The notes under the pieces were generated by a model. It saw only the letters and a list, made by a program, of their open reading frames with translations, ran no database searches and had not been told where the DNA came from. DNA of 64,000 bases from a bacterium (GTDB lineage Bacteria > UBA8248): assembly GCA_963692865.2 (NCBI GenBank), contig OY843592.1:1920001-1984000 (forward strand), in the 5' to 3' direction. How positions within the stretch are numbered: the first letter of the stretch is position 1; every line of letters starts with the position of its first letter. Shown here piece by piece: positions 3,709 through 51,991 of the stretch. The position numbers were made by a program, and so were the translations under genes.

Positions 3709-5388
<1,680 letters not shown>

Positions 5389-36504: not shown

Positions 36505-37182
36505 ATGCCGAAGCCCGATATGGCGCCCGGCGAAATCCGGGTCGCACCCTCTTTGCTCTCGTGTTCTTTCGAGAGAATGGGCGAGGAGATAGCGGCGGTG
36601 CGCGAAGCCGGGGCGGACTGGCTGCATTTCGACGTGATGGACGGGCATTTCGTGCCGAACATATCCGTGGGGCCTCTGGGCGTCGAGGCGGCCAGGCGGG
36701 CCGCGCCGGGCATGGCGCTCGACGTGCACCTGATGATCGCGGATCCGGATCGCTACGTCGAGGCGTTCGCCGATGCGGGCGCGGACATCCTGACGGTGCA
36801 CGTGGAGGCGCCGACGCACGTCCACCGGACTCTCCAGAGCATACGCGCGCGCGGTTTGGGCGTCGGGCTGACGCTGAACCCCGGAACGCCGCTTTCGGCG
36901 GTGGAGGGCCTGCTCCCGGAGGTGGACATGGTCCTCGTCATGAGCGTCAATCCGGGCTTCGGGGGCCAGAAGTTCATACCGGCTTCGCTGGAGCGGATTC
37001 GCCGTCTGAGAGGGATGATCGAGGCGGGAGGACTGTCGGTTCTGATAGAGGTCGACGGCGGCGTCACGCCGCGCAACGCGGCGGAGATACGCGCGGCGGG
37101 CGCGGAAGTACTGGTGGCCGGTTCCGCCGTGTTCGGCGCGCAAGACTACGCCGAGGCCGTACGCGGCATCAGGGGCGGATGA
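36505..37182 (+). CDS. rpe: Ribulose-phosphate 3-epimerase
   Basis: HFDVMDGHFVPN, DVHLM, MSVNPGFGGQ, VDGG. Confidence 0.97.
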   Translation: MPKPDMAPGEIRVAPSLLSCSFERMGEEIAAVREAGADWLHFDVMDGHFVPNISVGPLGVEAARRAAPGMALDVHLMIADPDRYVEAFADAGADILTVHVEAPTHVHRTLQSIRARGLGVGLTLNPGTPLSAVEGLLPEVDMVLVMSVNPGFGGQKFIPASLERIRRLRGMIEAGGLSVLIEVDGGVTPRNAAEIRAAGAEVLVAGSAVFGAQDYAEAVRGIRGG

Positions 37183-37538
37183 GGCTTGATTCGGGCTGTT
37201 GAAAAAGTCCTCATGAATGAGGGTTTGACGCATCCGATGAAAGAGCAAGAAACACTCCCCCCTTGAGGGTCGGGCTTCCCGAGGGGAAAGCCCAACGGTG
37301 AAGCCGAGCGTTTTTTGCGAAGGCTAAACCGGTGGGGGGAGATTTACTCTGTGGCATGTCCCCCCACCAACTCGCCTGCGGGCTTCGCCCTTGCCTCATC
37401 GTCGGCCTTCCCGAGGAGGAAAGATGGGGTAATCGGGTTGGTCTGCGAACTACCGCGTGTGGCGGATGTTCCTCTGCCTTATGATTCGAGGCGAGGCCGG
37501 GATGGTCCGGTCTCTACGCGCCCGCAGGAGGAGCAGTC

Positions 37539-38579
37539 ATGAACTACTTTGCAGGACTCGACGTGTCGTTGGAGTGGACGAGTGTGTGCGTGGTGGACGC
37601 GGAGGGCGGGATCGTCCGGGAGGCGAAGGTCGCGAGCGAACCCGCGGCCCTCGTGGCGTTCTTCACCGGACTGGCCTTCGGCGTAACGCGCATCTGCCTG
37701 GAGGCGGGGCCGCTGTCACAGTGGCTCCATGACGGTCTGGCCGAGGCCGGGTTCCCGGTGGTTTGCGCCGAGACGCGGCAACTGAAGGCGGTGCTCTCGG
37801 CGACGGTGAACAAGAGCGACCGCGACGACGCGCGCGGCATCGCCCAGTTGGTTCGCGCGAACCTGATTCGCCCGGTGCACGTGAAGACGGTGTCGAGCCA
37901 GGAAAAACGCATGCTCCTCGCCAACCGCAGGTTCATGCTGAAGCAGTTGTGCGACGCCGAGGCCCACATCCGGGGCACGCTGCGCAACTTCGGGCTGAAG
38001 ATGGGCAAGGTCACCCGTCGCGGTTTGGAGGCGCGTGTAGGGTGTCTGGTCGCGGAGCGCCCGGAGTTGGCGCGCCTGGTGGCGCCGATGCTGCGGGCTC
38101 GCTCTGCGCTGCTGGCGGAATACGTCCGGCTGCACAGGATGATGCTGGAGGCGGCGCGAGCCGATCCGGTCTGCCGGCGCCTGATGACGGTTCCCGGCGT
38201 GGGTCCGGTGACGGCGCTCACCTTCCGGGCGAGCGTCGACGTGCCATCGCGTTTTGCGCGCTCGCGCTCGGTGGGCGCGCACTTCGGGCTTGTGCCTCGC
38301 AAATGGCAATCCGGAGAGGTCGACCGCACGGGAAGCATCTCCAAATGCGGCGACGCGATGATGCGCGCGGCGCTCTACGAAGCCGCCAACGTCTTGCTCG
38401 GGCGCACGACGCGGTGGTCATGGCTGAAAGCCTGGGCGATGGGTGTGGCGAAGCGTCGCGGCAAGTCGCGCGCGAAGGTTGCGCTCGCCCGCCGGCTCGG
38501 CGTCATCATGCACCGCATGTGGATGGATGGCAGTGAGTTCCGCTGGAAGCGCGACGGCGCGGATGCTTCGGCTGCCTGA
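37539..38579 (+). CDS. IS110-family DEDD recombinase/transposase
   Basis: GLDVS, LEAG and KSDRDDA (DEDD), VPGVGP, GLVP..QSG serine motif, VALARRL; RBS AGGAGG. Confidence 0.97.
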   Translation: MNYFAGLDVSLEWTSVCVVDAEGGIVREAKVASEPAALVAFFTGLAFGVTRICLEAGPLSQWLHDGLAEAGFPVVCAETRQLKAVLSATVNKSDRDDARGIAQLVRANLIRPVHVKTVSSQEKRMLLANRRFMLKQLCDAEAHIRGTLRNFGLKMGKVTRRGLEARVGCLVAERPELARLVAPMLRARSALLAEYVRLHRMMLEAARADPVCRRLMTVPGVGPVTALTFRASVDVPSRFARSRSVGAHFGLVPRKWQSGEVDRTGSISKCGDAMMRAALYEAANVLLGRTTRWSWLKAWAMGVAKRRGKSRAKVALARRLGVIMHRMWMDGSEFRWKRDGADASAA

Positions 38580-38877
38580 GGTCGAGACACTGAAGAAGGA
38601 GGACCACAGACAAACCCTGTAGCTTCCGCCTCGGCGGGGGATGCTCCCGTGGGGACGAGGGACGAAGTGAGTACGCTGTCGGCCTAGCCCCGCTGCGTCG
38701 GTGACGATGCGAGGGCGCAGGAAAGATTGTTCCACTTCGTTCTCCGATCCCATCCTGTTGACGGCCCCCGGCTCGGGAGTCGATCACGAAGAGAAGCGAG
38801 ACCCCCATGGAGCGTCATCTGCAGCCAAAGGCGGAACAGGTCTGACAGAACCAGGGGAGAGGAACTTGACTTGCCCT
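38580..38877 (+). ncRNA. Predicted bridge/seek RNA of the IS1111-type element (ends approximate)
   Basis: Two stem-internal loop-hairpin modules (38662-38740, 38741-38801) whose loop strands match the target and the donor junction. Confidence 0.8.
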
Positions 38878-38993
38878 ACCCGATTAGAGAAGACCGACCC
38901 TCAAAGGGGGAGTGGTTCCATACTGCGTGTTAATCGGTATTGCTCGCGAGGAGGGAGTGAACCTCAAGACCATCGAGGTCGAACGCGGGCGGT

Positions 38994-39079
38994 GTAGGGG
39001 CCGCATATCATGCGGCCCGCCGCCGGAGGGGCGAAAAGGCCGGGCCGCATGATATGTCGGACATATATGTCTGGCCTAC
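38994..39079. repeat. GTAG-type REP doublet (REPIN-like)
   Basis: GTAGGGGCCGCATATCATGCGGCCC ... GGGCCGCATGATATG...CCTAC; related copies at 51444-51516 and 51819-51889, partial copy at 32211-32287. Confidence 0.8.
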
Positions 39080-39161
39080 AAAACCGTATTCCCTGCATGA
39101 CGACCGTGGGGGCGCTTCACGAAGGCCCCCACGGGAACATCCCTTTGAGAGATCAAAGTGC

Positions 39162-39380
39162 CCGTCATTCCGGCGAAAGCCGGAATCCATTTTCGCCTTT
39201 GTCTTTGGCCCTTCGCTTAGACGTCCTCGTTCCCGGCCGGGGAAGATACGGACACCGCCATATGTATCCACCTTATCCGTTTCGGACTCGGGCGCGGCGC
39301 CCCCTCCCGCGAGTCGGAATCAAATGCAAAAACGAAGGTAAAAATCATAAAATGGATTCCGGCTTTCGCCGGAATGACGG
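39162..39380. repeat. CGTC-type REP doublet
   Basis: CCGTCATTCCGGCGAAAGCCGGAATCCATTTT and its perfect reverse complement about 155 bp away. Confidence 0.85.
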
Positions 39381-51234: not shown

Positions 51235-51991
51235 GGGGTTGTTGAAAAAGCCCCGTCGACATCGCCTTTACCCCTCTGACAAGGGGGGACGGGGGGGTTG
51301 CAGTGACAACTCCGAGGGGGTGTTGAAAAAGTCCTGATTTCTAGATTTATCGTATATAACCGACCGACGAGAGAGGAAAACCACTCCCCCCTTGAGGGGG
51401 TAGTTGAAAAACCTATCCCTCTCGCATCAACCACGTTTTACCCGTAGGGGTCGCATATCATGCGACCCGGCCTTTTCGCCTCTCCGGCGGCGGGCCGCAT
51501 GATATGCGGCCCCTACACCGCCCGTGTTCGACCTCGATGGTCTTGAAATTCACTCCCTCCTCGCGAGCAATACCGATTAACACGCAGTATGGAACCACTC
51601 CCCCCTTGAGGGTCGGTCTTTCCGCCTCGGGAAGACCGACGGCAAGACGAGGACGAAGCCCGAAGTCGCGCCGGTGGGGGGAGTTTTTTATTTTAGAATC
51701 GTTCCCCCCACCGAATCGGCCTTCGCACAAACCGCTCGGCCTCTTCGTCGGGCTTTCCCCTCGGGGAGCCCGACCCTCAAAGGGGCTGTTGAAAAACCCG
51801 GAGAGAGACAGTTTGTTTGTAGGGGCCGCATATCATGCGGCCCGCCTTGTGGAGGCGAAAATCAGGGCCGCATGATATGCGGCCCCTACAATGCCATCGC
51901 GTTTTGCGTAGCAGGACAGACACGGAGACCTGTCCCTACGGGATCATCACGTCGCCGACCGAGGGGATACATGGCCTTTTTCAACAATCCC
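51235..51991. mobile_element. TIR-bounded composite cassette E
   Basis: Left-type TIRs at 51235, 51316, 51397 and 51782; right TIR ending 51991; flanking direct repeat CTATTT (51229-51234 / 51992-51997). Confidence 0.75.

What the first reader, a model, noticed from the sequence alone, without database searches (positions are those of the whole stretch)
38580..38893. Readable bridge/seek RNA: both guide loops match the target and the donor
Seen, module 1: stem ACGAAGTG(38662-38669)/CACTTCGT(38733-38740) with an inner hairpin. Its loop strands carry GTCGGCCT (38678-38685; 7/8 match to the reverse complement of target AGACCGAC) and AGGAAAGA (38719-38726; identical to the left target flank 37417-37424). 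Seen, module 2: loop strands carry CCCATCCT (38749-38756; 7/8 match to the reverse complement of junction AAGATGGG) and AGAGAAG (38790-38796; identical to right end 38886-38892). Established: IS110-family recombinases use a bispecific non-coding RNA, which lies downstream of the ORF in the IS1111 group. Inference: this is an intact RNA-guided recombinase with AAGA junction microhomology whose specificity can be read directly, so it is a candidate programmable tool.
Basis: partly seen in the sequence, partly recalled or inferred. Interest (0 to 1): 0.8.

Follow-up and report, generated by a model that had tools for sequence, protein, structure and literature searches.

The report
IS1111-type element with readable bridge RNA
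This is a small jumping gene whose own RNA carries short readable stretches that match both its landing site and its own ends, as in the already known bridge/seek RNA systems, so it is a sound but ordinary new example.

Summary

**What it is.** The region is the 3' non-coding part of a 1469-bp IS110-family element of the IS1111 group (window 37424-38892). The genome holds six identical copies, inserted at an AG inside the 3' arm of a REP-like hairpin.

**Comparative evidence.**
- In 72 elements with defined ends, the two target-loop strands change in step with the flanks. With 35 target classes, 0 of 20000 permutations reached the observed match for either strand.
- The donor-loop strands follow variant element ends in several lineages. 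One relative has core AC instead of AG, and its guides appear to follow.
- Helices flanking the loops show compensatory changes, and the guides lie outside them.

- The shared core is AG, not AAGA.
- GTCGGCCT is a perfect match to the genome's consensus site.
- The single-sequence match alone is only modestly unlikely (51 of 5000 shuffles).

**Not shown.** Expression and activity were not shown.

**Verdict.** This is a new member of a known kind (bridge RNA / seekRNA), of modest interest.

The parts
37401..37423 (+). Left part of the REP-like hairpin target (GTCGGCCTT...GGAAAG), ending in the core AG at 37422-37423.
   Evidence: The left flank is shared by 5 of 6 copies. Uninterrupted hairpins of the same type are in the genome.
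37424..38892 (+). The insertion sequence, 1469 bp, counting the core AG once at its right end.
   Evidence: Six copies have no internal difference. A 1476-nt repeat contig spanning 37417-38892 is in run X1.
37424..37429 (+). Left terminal extension ATGGGG. This is the 'right donor' read by the donor loop's 5' strand.
   Evidence: Conserved in most relatives. The variants and whether the guide follows them are listed.
37430..37438 (+). Left subterminal inverted repeat TAATCGGGT.
   Evidence: The best inverted repeat between the upstream and downstream regions. The same position holds in relatives.
37539..38579 (+). Recombinase/transposase gene, 346 aa.
38625..38638 (+). Small 5' hairpin (P0), weakly supported.
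   Evidence: Helix 1: 69.1% of cells paired, and 1 of 5 pairs has a double change.
38647..38654 (+). P1 5' strand (CCGTGGGG). It closes the whole RNA domain with 38803-38810.
   Evidence: Predicted by RNAalifold. Helix 2: 6 of 8 pairs have double changes.
38659..38674 (+). P2 5' strand, the base of the target arm.
   Evidence: (helix 3: 87.1% paired, 7 of 13 pairs with double changes)
38678..38685 (+). Target guide GTCGGCCT. It pairs with the top strand AG+GCCGAC to the right of the cut. It corresponds to the RTG of IS621 nomenclature and the 'T' match of seekRNA.
38687..38716 (+). P3 (GCC/GGC) and the inner hairpin that cap the target loop.
   Evidence: Helix 4 is 89.1% paired. The inner hairpin (helix 5) is only 53.3% paired in this alignment.
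38719..38725 (+). Target guide AGGAAAG. It is identical to the left flank including the core, so it pairs with the bottom strand. It corresponds to LTG, the 'B' match. The next base, A38726, matches only the window's own site.
38729..38743 (+). P2 3' strand.
38748..38756 (+). Donor guide TCCCATCCT. CCCAT pairs with ATGGG of the left end. CT, complementary to the core, follows after one extra C. It corresponds to RDG.
38757..38761 (+). P4 5' strand GT(T)GA. It pairs with TCAC at 38784-38787.
   Evidence: Helix 6: 88.9% paired, and 3 of 4 pairs have double changes.
38784..38787 (+). P4 3' strand TCAC.
38790..38796 (+). Donor guide AGAGAAG. It is identical to the last 7 nt of the element, so it pairs with the bottom strand. 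It corresponds to LDG.
   Evidence: The last 7 nt of the element's own right end are present in this region in 71 of 72 elements. Variants follow in L048, L058 and L099/L108 and in L066.
38803..38810 (+). P1 3' strand CCCCATGG.
38866..38871 (+). TTGACT, a possible -35 box of a promoter completed only at the circle junction (inferred).
   Evidence: TTGAC lies 20-22 nt from the right end in 18 of 24 elements. The hexamer across the junction at 17-18 nt spacing is GAAGAT in 16 of those 18. No promoter-like site was found inside the integrated element.
38878..38886 (+). Right subterminal inverted repeat ACCCGATTA.
38887..38892 (+). Right terminal extension GAGA plus the core AG.
38893..38914 (+). 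Right part of the interrupted REP-like hairpin (ACCGAC) and the adjoining repeat.
51454..51620 (-). Inverted copy of the 167 nt to the right of the element, about 96% alike. It carries an uninterrupted hairpin (..CGGAAAG ACCGAC..) and so shows the empty form of the right junction.
   Evidence: (L007)

Best explanation
Window 37424-38892 is an IS110-family insertion sequence of the IS1111 group. Its 3' non-coding region (about 38645-38812) encodes a bispecific guide RNA (bridge RNA / long seekRNA).

**Fold.** The RNA forms a three-way junction closed by P1.

**Arm A (38659-38743, about 85 nt) holds the target loop.**
- Its 5' strand GUCGGCCU pairs with the top strand AG|GCCGAC.
- The two matches overlap at the core AG.

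**Arm B holds the donor loop.**
- CCCAU(C)CU pairs with AG|ATGGG of the left end.

**Target.** The target is the 3' arm of a minor variant of the genome's REP-like hairpin.

**Shown here.**
- The element boundaries, the six identical copies and the empty sites.
- The helices and their covariation.
- The covariation of all four guide segments with flanks or ends.

**Inferred from experiments on ISEc11, ISPa11, ISKpn4 and IS621.**
- The element excises as a circle joined at AG.
- A junction promoter transcribes the gene and the RNA.
- The RNA is processed and bound by the recombinase.
- Ser258 and the DEDD domain exchange strands at the core.
For: **Protein.**
- PF02371 E 3.2e-21 and PF01548 E 7.3e-13.
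- NF033542 'IS110 family RNA-guided transposase', 237.2 bits against a cut-off of 140.
- Distant sequence matches to the solved ISCro4 and IS621 proteins, E about 1e-14.
- D8, E55, D94, D97, G250, L251, P253 and G259 are invariant and S258 is nearly invariant in 12 relatives.

**Element.**
- Six copies have no internal difference.
- The subterminal inverted repeat is 9 bp.
- The non-coding stretch is 115 nt before the gene and 313 nt after it.
- Uninterrupted hairpins GTCGGCCTTCCCGAGG[A/C]GGAAAG|GCCGAC are in the same genome.

**Target guides.**
- In 16 target classes from genomes, permutation of the flanks (core excluded) reached the observed score 0 of 20000 times for the 5' strand and 1 of 20000 for the 3' strand.
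- With metagenome loci added (65 loci, 35 classes), it was 0 of 20000 for both.
- The order, top-strand match 5' of bottom-strand match with overlap at the cut, is the one reported for IS1111-type seekRNAs (PMC11187229, section 9, read).

**Donor guides.**
- The last 7 nt of the element's own right end are present in the 3' strand region in 71 of 72 elements.
- The variant ends ACAGAAG (L048), AAAGAAG (L058) and ACGGAAG (L099, L108) are each mirrored in the RNA.
- Variant left ends are largely mirrored: L048 (5 of 6), L058 (5 of 6), L108 (5 of 6) and L064 (6 of 6 aligned).
- In L066 the core is AC at both ends. By eye, the two strands identical to the DNA end in AC and the two complementary strands carry GT.

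**Structure.**
- RNAalifold leaves the target guides unpaired between P2 and P3.
- On 19 sequences, my 41-pair structure has 80.1% of cells paired against at most 51.9% when slid. Of the 41 pairs, 21 show double changes, and at most 3 of 500 shuffles reached the observed value on any of the five measures.
Against: **No evidence of transcription or protein binding.**
- The two RNA runs held only short pieces of relatives. No circle-junction joint was seen.

**Weak single-sequence folding signal.**
- z = -1.15 for the 314 nt; 14 of 100 shuffles fold as well.
- z = -2.31 for the 191 nt; 4 of 200 shuffles fold as well.

**Limits of the structure evidence.**
- RNAalifold found only 22 pairs (-8.84 kcal/mol) and did not predict the donor arm beyond a 2-bp hairpin.
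- P4 and my structure were drawn from these same sequences, which favours them in the slide control.

**Guides that do not fit.**
- 19 of 65 loci fall below my score of 6 for the 5' target strand. 21 of 65 fall below 4 for the 3' strand.
- L034, L035, L086 and L140 do not match their own flanks.
- The window copy itself has a C.A mismatch. Two of the six genomic copies sit in poorly matching sites.
- Single substitutions in the left end are not mirrored in L036, L043, L093, L096, L120 and L129.
- The CT that should pair with the core in the donor 5' strand is displaced by one base here. It is replaced by AT in many relatives.

**Published result that bears on the donor arm.**
- For ISEc11, an 82-nt RNA holding only the target matches sufficed for transposition (PMC11187229, section 10, read). 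The donor arm may therefore not be required.

**Database.**
- No Rfam family matched.
Confidence: 0.88

Rival explanations
1. Only arm A is a working guide (the seekRNA model in the strict sense). The element ends would be recognised by the protein through the subterminal inverted repeats. The 'donor guide' matches would then be a by-product of conserved sequence or serve another role, such as processing or protein binding.
For: - The short 82-nt seekRNA of ISEc11, which carries only the target matches, supported transposition better than the long form (PMC11187229, section 10, read).
- A 2026 review draws the IS ends as recognised by the transposase (PMC13604230, legend of its Fig. 2, passage seen).
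- Left-end substitutions in L036, L043, L093, L096, L120 and L129 are not mirrored.
- The donor ends are nearly constant in the family, so most of the 71-of-72 agreement is uninformative.
Against: - Wherever a lineage changed the last 7 nt of the right end at positions 2-7, the RNA changed likewise: L048, L058 and L099/L108, and L066.
- The multi-base changes of the left end in L048, L108 and L064 are mirrored.
- P4, which frames the loop, covaries.
- Durrant et al. report donor-complementary nucleotides in a multi-loop for IS1111 orthologues (PMC11208160, passage seen).
Confidence: 0.1
2. The matches are chance or reflect a DNA-level feature, and the region is an ordinary 3' untranslated or terminator region with no guide role.
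For: - A 7-mer identical to the purine-rich site turns up in 2454 of 5000 shuffles.
- The pair of matches, in order, turns up in 51 of 5000.
- There is no Rfam hit and no expression evidence.
Against: - Permutation tests gave 0 of 20000 across 35 target classes.
- Helices show compensatory base-pair changes.
- The guide order and the overlap at the cut are as published for this group (PMC11187229, section 9).
Confidence: 0.01
3. The RNA and the guides are real, but the element in this genome is no longer mobile. The six copies would have spread by duplication of the host repeat rather than by transposition.
For: - Three copies share at least 190 bp of identical left flank.
- No circle-junction joint was seen in the contigs laid.
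- No perfect empty 13-nt site remains in the genome: 0 exact and 11 with one mismatch.
Against: - All six copies are identical, with an intact reading frame and conserved catalytic residues.
- Two copies lie in unrelated, non-repeat flanks.
- The right flanks beyond the hairpin differ among the three copies that share a left flank.
Confidence: 0.05

Closest known systems
ISPa11 (IS1111 group, Pseudomonas aeruginosa) and its seekRNA / predicted bridge RNA
   Same: - IS1111-type element with the RNA downstream of the gene.
- Targets a REP hairpin.
- The top-strand match lies 5' of the bottom-strand match.
- Short (96 nt) and long (172 nt) RNA forms were reported, comparable with arm A (about 85 nt) and the P1-closed domain (about 165-185 nt) here.

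Sources: PMC11187229 sections 8-9 and PMC13604230 Table 1, passages read.
   Different: - Different target, ends and cut site.
- RNA lengths here are predicted, not measured.
ISEc11 / ISXne4 (IS1111 group) seekRNA
   Same: - Natural retargeting by change of the two target-matching stretches while the stems stay conserved, as seen here among relatives.
- A junction promoter (Pjunc) is described for ISEc11.

Source: PMC11187229 sections 8 and 10, read.
   Different: - For ISEc11 the 82-nt form sufficed and no donor loop was assigned.
- Here a second arm with end-matching strands covaries with the ends.
IS621 bridge RNA (IS110 group, E. coli)
   Same: - Two loops, each with one strand pairing to the bottom strand on the left and one to the top strand on the right.
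- A core dinucleotide is included in all four pairings.
- The target is a REP.
- The recombinase has the DEDD plus Ser-Gly arrangement.

Sources: PMC11208160 section 7, passage read.
   Different: - In IS621 the RNA lies upstream of the gene, and the order of the two strands in each loop is the reverse.
- Its core is CT (recalled from memory) against AG here.
- Its two loops are arranged as simple internal loops, as I recall, whereas here they sit on two arms of a three-way junction.
- The protein is only distantly alike: E 3e-14 over the C-terminal half.
ISPpu9 / ISPpu10 (IS110 group, Pseudomonas putida)
   Same: - Insert into REP sequences.
- Recombine at an invariant AG dinucleotide.

Source: PMC12288879, passages read.
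   Different: - IS110 group, without subterminal repeats.
- The bridge RNA lies upstream of the gene.
- ISPpu9 has its own strong promoter and extra small RNAs.

Membership tests
IS110 family (RNA-guided DEDD recombinases) | N-terminal RuvC-like DEDD domain | tested here: met
   PF01548 E 7.3e-13. D8, E55, D94 and D97 are invariant in 12 relatives.
IS110 family (RNA-guided DEDD recombinases) | C-terminal domain PF02371 with the G(L)-P----S/T-G motif | tested here: met
   PF02371 E 3.2e-21. GLVPRKWQSG is at 250-259. G250, L251, P253 and G259 are invariant and S258 is nearly so.
IS110 family (RNA-guided DEDD recombinases) | Curated family model above its cut-off | tested here: met
   NF033542 equivalog, 237.2 bits against 140.
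IS1111 group | Subterminal inverted repeats of 7-17 bp, set in from the ends | tested here: met
   TAATCGGGT at 37430-37438 and ACCCGATTA at 38878-38886, each 6 nt from the end. The length range comes from PMC11208160, passage read.
IS1111 group | Longer non-coding region downstream of the gene; protein of 330-350 aa | tested here: met
   115 nt upstream against 313 nt downstream; protein of 346 aa. The criteria come from PMC11187229 section 6, read.
IS1111 group | Site-specific, orientation-specific insertion | tested here: met
   Five of 6 copies have the REP left arm at their left junction. Four of 6 have the matching right arm ([G/A]CCGAC) at their right junction.
IS1111 group | Circular intermediate with a junction promoter | tested here: inconclusive
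   A conserved TTGAC sits at a fixed distance from the right end. The -10-like hexamer GAAGAT across the junction is weak. No joint was seen in the contigs laid.
Bridge RNA / seekRNA | [quoted passage not shown] | tested here: met
   38678-38685 and 38719-38725 overlap at AG. Both are unpaired in the consensus fold.
Bridge RNA / seekRNA | Guide stretches change with the target among relatives | tested here: met
   Permutations: 0 of 20000 and 1 of 20000 with 16 classes; 0 of 20000 for both strands with 35 classes. 46 of 65 and 44 of 65 loci pass my score thresholds.
Bridge RNA / seekRNA | Second loop matching both element ends (bispecific) | tested here: met
   The match follows the ends in L048, L058, L064, L066 and L099/L108. 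It does not follow the single substitutions in L036, L043, L093, L096, L120 and L129.
Bridge RNA / seekRNA | RNA is made, processed and bound by the recombinase, and is needed for recombination | not testable with these tools
   Contigs of two RNA runs gave only short pieces of relatives.
Rfam families | Match to a curated covariance model | tested here: not met
   No family at E <= 1 over 37000-39300, apart from a chance SAM-VI hit outside the element (22 bits against a gathering score of 57.5).

The most novel reading that the evidence does not exclude
In this IS1111-type clade the second arm is a true donor-reading loop, and nature has re-coded it along with the element ends. Right ends ACAGAAG, AAAGAAG and ACGGAAG are each mirrored in the RNA. 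In one lineage (L066) the core dinucleotide itself is AC instead of AG, with all four guide strands appearing to follow.

If this holds, donor recognition and the core are RNA-specified in the IS1111 group too. The seekRNA experiments left this open, because the short RNA alone sufficed there.
Probability: 0.6. Interest if true: 0.45.

Novelty: new member of a known kind. Interest (0 to 1): 0.3.

Why it matters
It adds a cleanly decodable IS1111-type recombinase and guide RNA pair. The element comes from a genome whose closest element relatives are in MAGs labelled Nitrospinota.

The set of 72 natural relatives reads like a mutational series: different target guides, several re-coded donor ends and one changed core. 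This is useful as comparative support for the rules of guide design in the less studied IS1111 group, and as one more candidate for recombinase screening.

It does not change how these systems are understood.

Tried and rejected
**Searches and scans that gave nothing**
- Rfam 15 over 37000-39300 found no family for the RNA.
- The promoter scan of 37250-39050 found no sigma-70-like site. Of the three terminator-like hairpins, none follows the RNA on the + strand.

**Sequencing runs**
- The two RNA runs (X22, X23) held only short contigs 88-99% alike, over parts of the gene. One 47-nt piece lay over 38776-38822.
- No joint across the circle junction was seen.
- This says nothing about expression either way.

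**Folding**
- The single-sequence folding signal was weak.
- RNAalifold did not recover the donor arm.

**Scoring that I replaced**
- My first scoring of the 5' target strand used fixed alignment columns. It was out of register in several loci: own mean 4.17 against cross mean 2.55.
- I replaced it with a windowed ungapped score applied alike to own and foreign flanks.

**An idea considered and dropped**
- I considered that the window copy's mismatched hairpin arms (left GGCC type, right GACC type) record a rearrangement between two copies.
- I dropped this because the right flank belongs to a multi-copy repeat (L007, L009-L011).

**Rows dropped from the genome scan (52 loci)**
- 11 partial matches were left out.
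- 7 were dropped for premature stops (L057, L065, L068, L069, L070, L072, L073).
- Of the 34 remaining, ends were defined in 24 by motif or by hand.
- L059 then dropped out because 5 nt of its right end are missing. This left 23 loci plus the window.
- The other 10 and L059 were read by eye only.

**Rows dropped elsewhere**
- For alignment A1, 19 of those 24 rows were given. L033, L034, L038, L053 and L055 were left out as near-duplicates.
- Of 80 metagenome loci, 2 lacked a long frame and 30 gave no end pair by my rule. This left 48.
- 7 of the 72 combined rows lacked enough flank.

**Could not be consulted**
- ISfinder and the papers' supplements, including Supplementary Table 5 of PMC11208160 and the supplementary figures of PMC11187229. 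They may already list this element or close relatives.
Full report
**The observation**

- the stem ACGAAGTG / CACTTCGT (38662-38669 / 38733-38740);
- GTCGGCCT (38678-38685) and AGGAAAGA (38719-38726);
- CCCATCCT (38749-38756) and AGAGAAG (38790-38796);
- the flank and end strings at 37417-37424 and 38886-38892.

Taken alone, the matches are only modestly improbable. In 5000 dinucleotide-preserving shuffles of the non-coding region, a complementary 8-mer and an identical 7-mer to the site, in the right order and within 80 nt, occurred 51 times. The purine-rich 7-mer alone occurred in 2454.

**The element**

The reading frame 37539-38579 encodes a 346-aa protein.
- It matches PF02371 and PF01548.
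- It scores 237.2 bits against NCBIfam NF033542, 'IS110 family RNA-guided transposase', cut-off 140.
- It is distantly alike to the solved ISCro4 and IS621 recombinases.
- D8, E55, D94 and D97 and the motif GLVPRKWQSG (250-259) are conserved among 12 relatives.

The genome holds six copies with no internal difference. They run from ATGGGG (37424) to GAGAAG (38892). The 9-bp subterminal inverted repeats TAATCGGGT / ACCCGATTA lie 6 nt inside each end. The long non-coding stretch follows the gene: 313 nt against 115 nt before it.

These are the marks of the IS1111 group as described in PMC11187229 (section 6, read) and PMC11208160 (passages read).

**The target**

The left flanks of five copies end in GTCGGCCTTCCCGAGGAGG[A/G]AAG. 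The right flanks are GCCGAC in three copies, ACCGAC in the window copy, and GTCGAT and CGCCCC in the other two.

Uninterrupted hairpins GTCGGCCTTCCCGAGG[A/C]GGAAAG GCCGAC exist in the genome. One with ACCGAC lies in the window itself at about 51454-51620 on the minus strand. So the element sits in the 3' arm of a REP-like hairpin.

Across 24 elements with ends defined, the two bases shared by the left flank and the right end are AG. GTCGGCCT is a perfect complement of AG+GCCGAC, the consensus site, and mismatches the window's own site by one C.A.

**Do the target guides covary with the targets?**

I fetched 52 loci from genomes and 80 from metagenomes. I defined ends through the subterminal repeats in 24 and 48 elements respectively. 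The rows dropped are listed under Tried and rejected.

In a MAFFT alignment of the non-coding regions, two blocks stand out.
- The block aligned with 38675-38685 is the reverse complement of AG plus the right flank.
  - L036 and L041: 9 of 9.
  - L032/L033: 10.
  - L056/L061: 10.
  - L040: 9, with one G.U.
  - L085, L095, L096, L127, L154 and L161 follow their own differing flanks.
- The block aligned with 38719-38725 repeats the left flank.
  - Examples are ACGGAAG, ATGAGAG, TCAAAAAG, CCAATAG, TGACCAG, TTTTCAG, TCTTCAG and CCAACAG.

I scored only the flank bases, not the constant core, and shuffled which flank goes with which RNA.
- With 16 target classes, the observed sum was reached 0 of 20000 times for the 5' strand and 1 of 20000 for the 3' strand.
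- With 35 classes, it was reached 0 of 20000 times for both.
- Not all loci fit. 46 of 65 and 44 of 65 pass my thresholds, and L034, L035, L086 and L140 do not match their flanks at all. These may be off-target insertions or assembly chimeras.

The order, top-strand match first with overlap at the cut, is that reported for IS1111-type seekRNAs (PMC11187229, section 9). In IS621 terms the 5' strand is an RTG and the 3' strand an LTG, in reversed order (PMC11208160, section 7).

**Do the donor guides covary with the ends?**

The ends are nearly constant in the family, so most agreement is uninformative. The RNA holds the last 7 nt of its own right end in 71 of 72 elements. The informative cases are the variants.

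Right ends:
- ACAGAAG (L048), AAAGAAG (L058) and ACGGAAG (L099, L108) are each mirrored in the RNA.

Left ends:
- ATCCCG (L048), ATGAGG (L058), ATGCCG (L108) and ATGCGG (L064) are mirrored in 5 of 6 or better.
- L062 and L063 are partly mirrored.

In L066 both ends carry AC where the others carry AG. By eye:
- the 3' target strand reads TTTCAAC;
- the 3' donor strand reads AGAGAAC;
- the 5' target strand ends in TGT;
- the 5' donor strand reads CCCAT-C-GT, the same one-base offset as CCCAT-C-CT in the window.

This is one locus, read by eye.

Against the donor-loop reading:
- single substitutions in the left end of L036, L043, L093, L096, L120 and L129 are not mirrored;
- many relatives carry AT where CT would pair with the core.

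**Structure**

RNAalifold on 19 sequences (alignment A1) predicts P1 (38647-38654 with 38803-38810), P2 and P3. It leaves both target guides unpaired between P2 and P3. It does not predict the donor arm.

Folding the donor arms one by one showed a 4-bp helix, P4, that changes in step: GU(U)GA/UCAC, GGGA/UCCC, GGAA/UUCC, GCGG/CCGC, GUGG/CCAC, GAGG/CCUC and GCAG/CUGC.

My 41-pair structure, counted on A1, gave the following.
- 80.1% of cells are paired, against at most 51.9% for slid partners.
- 21 pairs show double changes.
- At most 3 of 500 shuffles reached the observed value on any of the five measures.
- The structure was drawn from these same sequences, which favours it in the slide control.

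The picture is a three-way junction. P1 closes it, arm A (about 85 nt) carries the target loop, and arm B carries the donor loop. This fits two published observations:
- the 'multi-loop' noted for IS1111 orthologues (PMC11208160, passage read);
- the short (82-96 nt) and long (about 150-170 nt) RNAs co-purified with IS1111-type transposases (PMC11187229, sections 8 and 14).

**How it most likely works**

By analogy with the tested relatives, and not shown here:
1. The element excises as a circle joined at AG.
2. A conserved TTGAC lies 20-22 nt from the right end in 18 of 24 elements. It would face the hexamer GAAGAT across the junction at 17-18 nt.
3. No promoter-like site lies inside the integrated copy, so gene and RNA would be transcribed mainly from the circle.
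4. The RNA is cut out and held by the recombinase. It then pairs with both strands of the target and donor around AG.

No perfect empty 13-nt site is left in the genome, and 11 sites have one mismatch. The main REP family (GGGAAAG|CCCGAC) differs from the target at two positions.

**Known or new**

Bridge RNAs and seekRNAs of IS110/IS1111 elements have been described and reprogrammed (PMC11208160, PMC11187229; review PMC13604230). Structural-model predictions are reported to cover 93.0% of ISfinder IS1111 elements (PMC11208160, passage read).

This element is therefore a new member of a known kind. I could not check ISfinder or the supplementary tables, which may already list it. The most useful by-product is the natural series of re-coded donor ends and the AC-core relative. 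It bears on whether donor reading is RNA-guided in the IS1111 group.

Noticed in passing
window 37253-37423 and 38893-38914; G000 copies L002, L003: Three of the six copies share at least 190 bp of identical left flank. That unit begins with CACTCCCCCCTTGAGGGTCGG, and the right flank ends with its inverted counterpart CCGACCCTCAAGGGGGGAGTG. The host repeat therefore looks like a MITE-like unit of about 230 bp with terminal inverted repeats, and the element sits in its right end.
   Followed up: partly
G000:C1 about 3606968-3607035 (L013/L014): A REP copy reads GTCGGCCTTCCCGATTAGAGAAG|GCCGAC. The left arm of the hairpin is fused, at the shared CCCGA, to the last 14 nt of the element's right end. 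It looks like a scar of an imprecise loss of the element.
   Followed up: partly
window 38890-39056 and 51454-51620 (-): The 167 nt to the right of the element recur inverted 12.5 kb away, at about 96% identity, next to an uninterrupted hairpin. Shorter copies occur elsewhere in the genome.
   Followed up: partly
window 38683: The guide base C is T in the 97%-identical element L030 and in a contig of run X5. The T form pairs perfectly with ACCGAC sites and by G.U with GCCGAC sites. It is a one-base natural variant of the target guide.
   Followed up: partly
L040, L088, L105, L114, L126 and other soil metagenome loci: 23 of 65 loci share the right flank CGGACAT while their left flanks and 3' guide strands vary. 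In 14 of 60 loci the reverse complement of core plus right flank (an exact 7-mer) lies within 43 nt upstream, against 28 of 2070 mismatched controls. Many targets in other clades are therefore also hairpins cut two bases into the 3' arm.
   Followed up: partly
L059 about 3815-3830; L046, L047, L054: Decayed relatives. L059 lacks 5 nt (AGAAG) of its right end. L046, L047 and L054 are cut off or interrupted inside the non-coding region.
   Followed up: no
window 39004-39058: A long inverted repeat gives a weak SAM-VI riboswitch hit (22 bits, gathering score 57.5, E 0.35). This is most likely chance, and it lies outside the element.
   Followed up: no
L049, L051-L055: In this clade both target strands deviate at the core. 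The 3' strand ends in TG instead of AG, and the 5' strand ends in TT instead of CT, which gives a G.U. The targets themselves still have AG.
   Followed up: no
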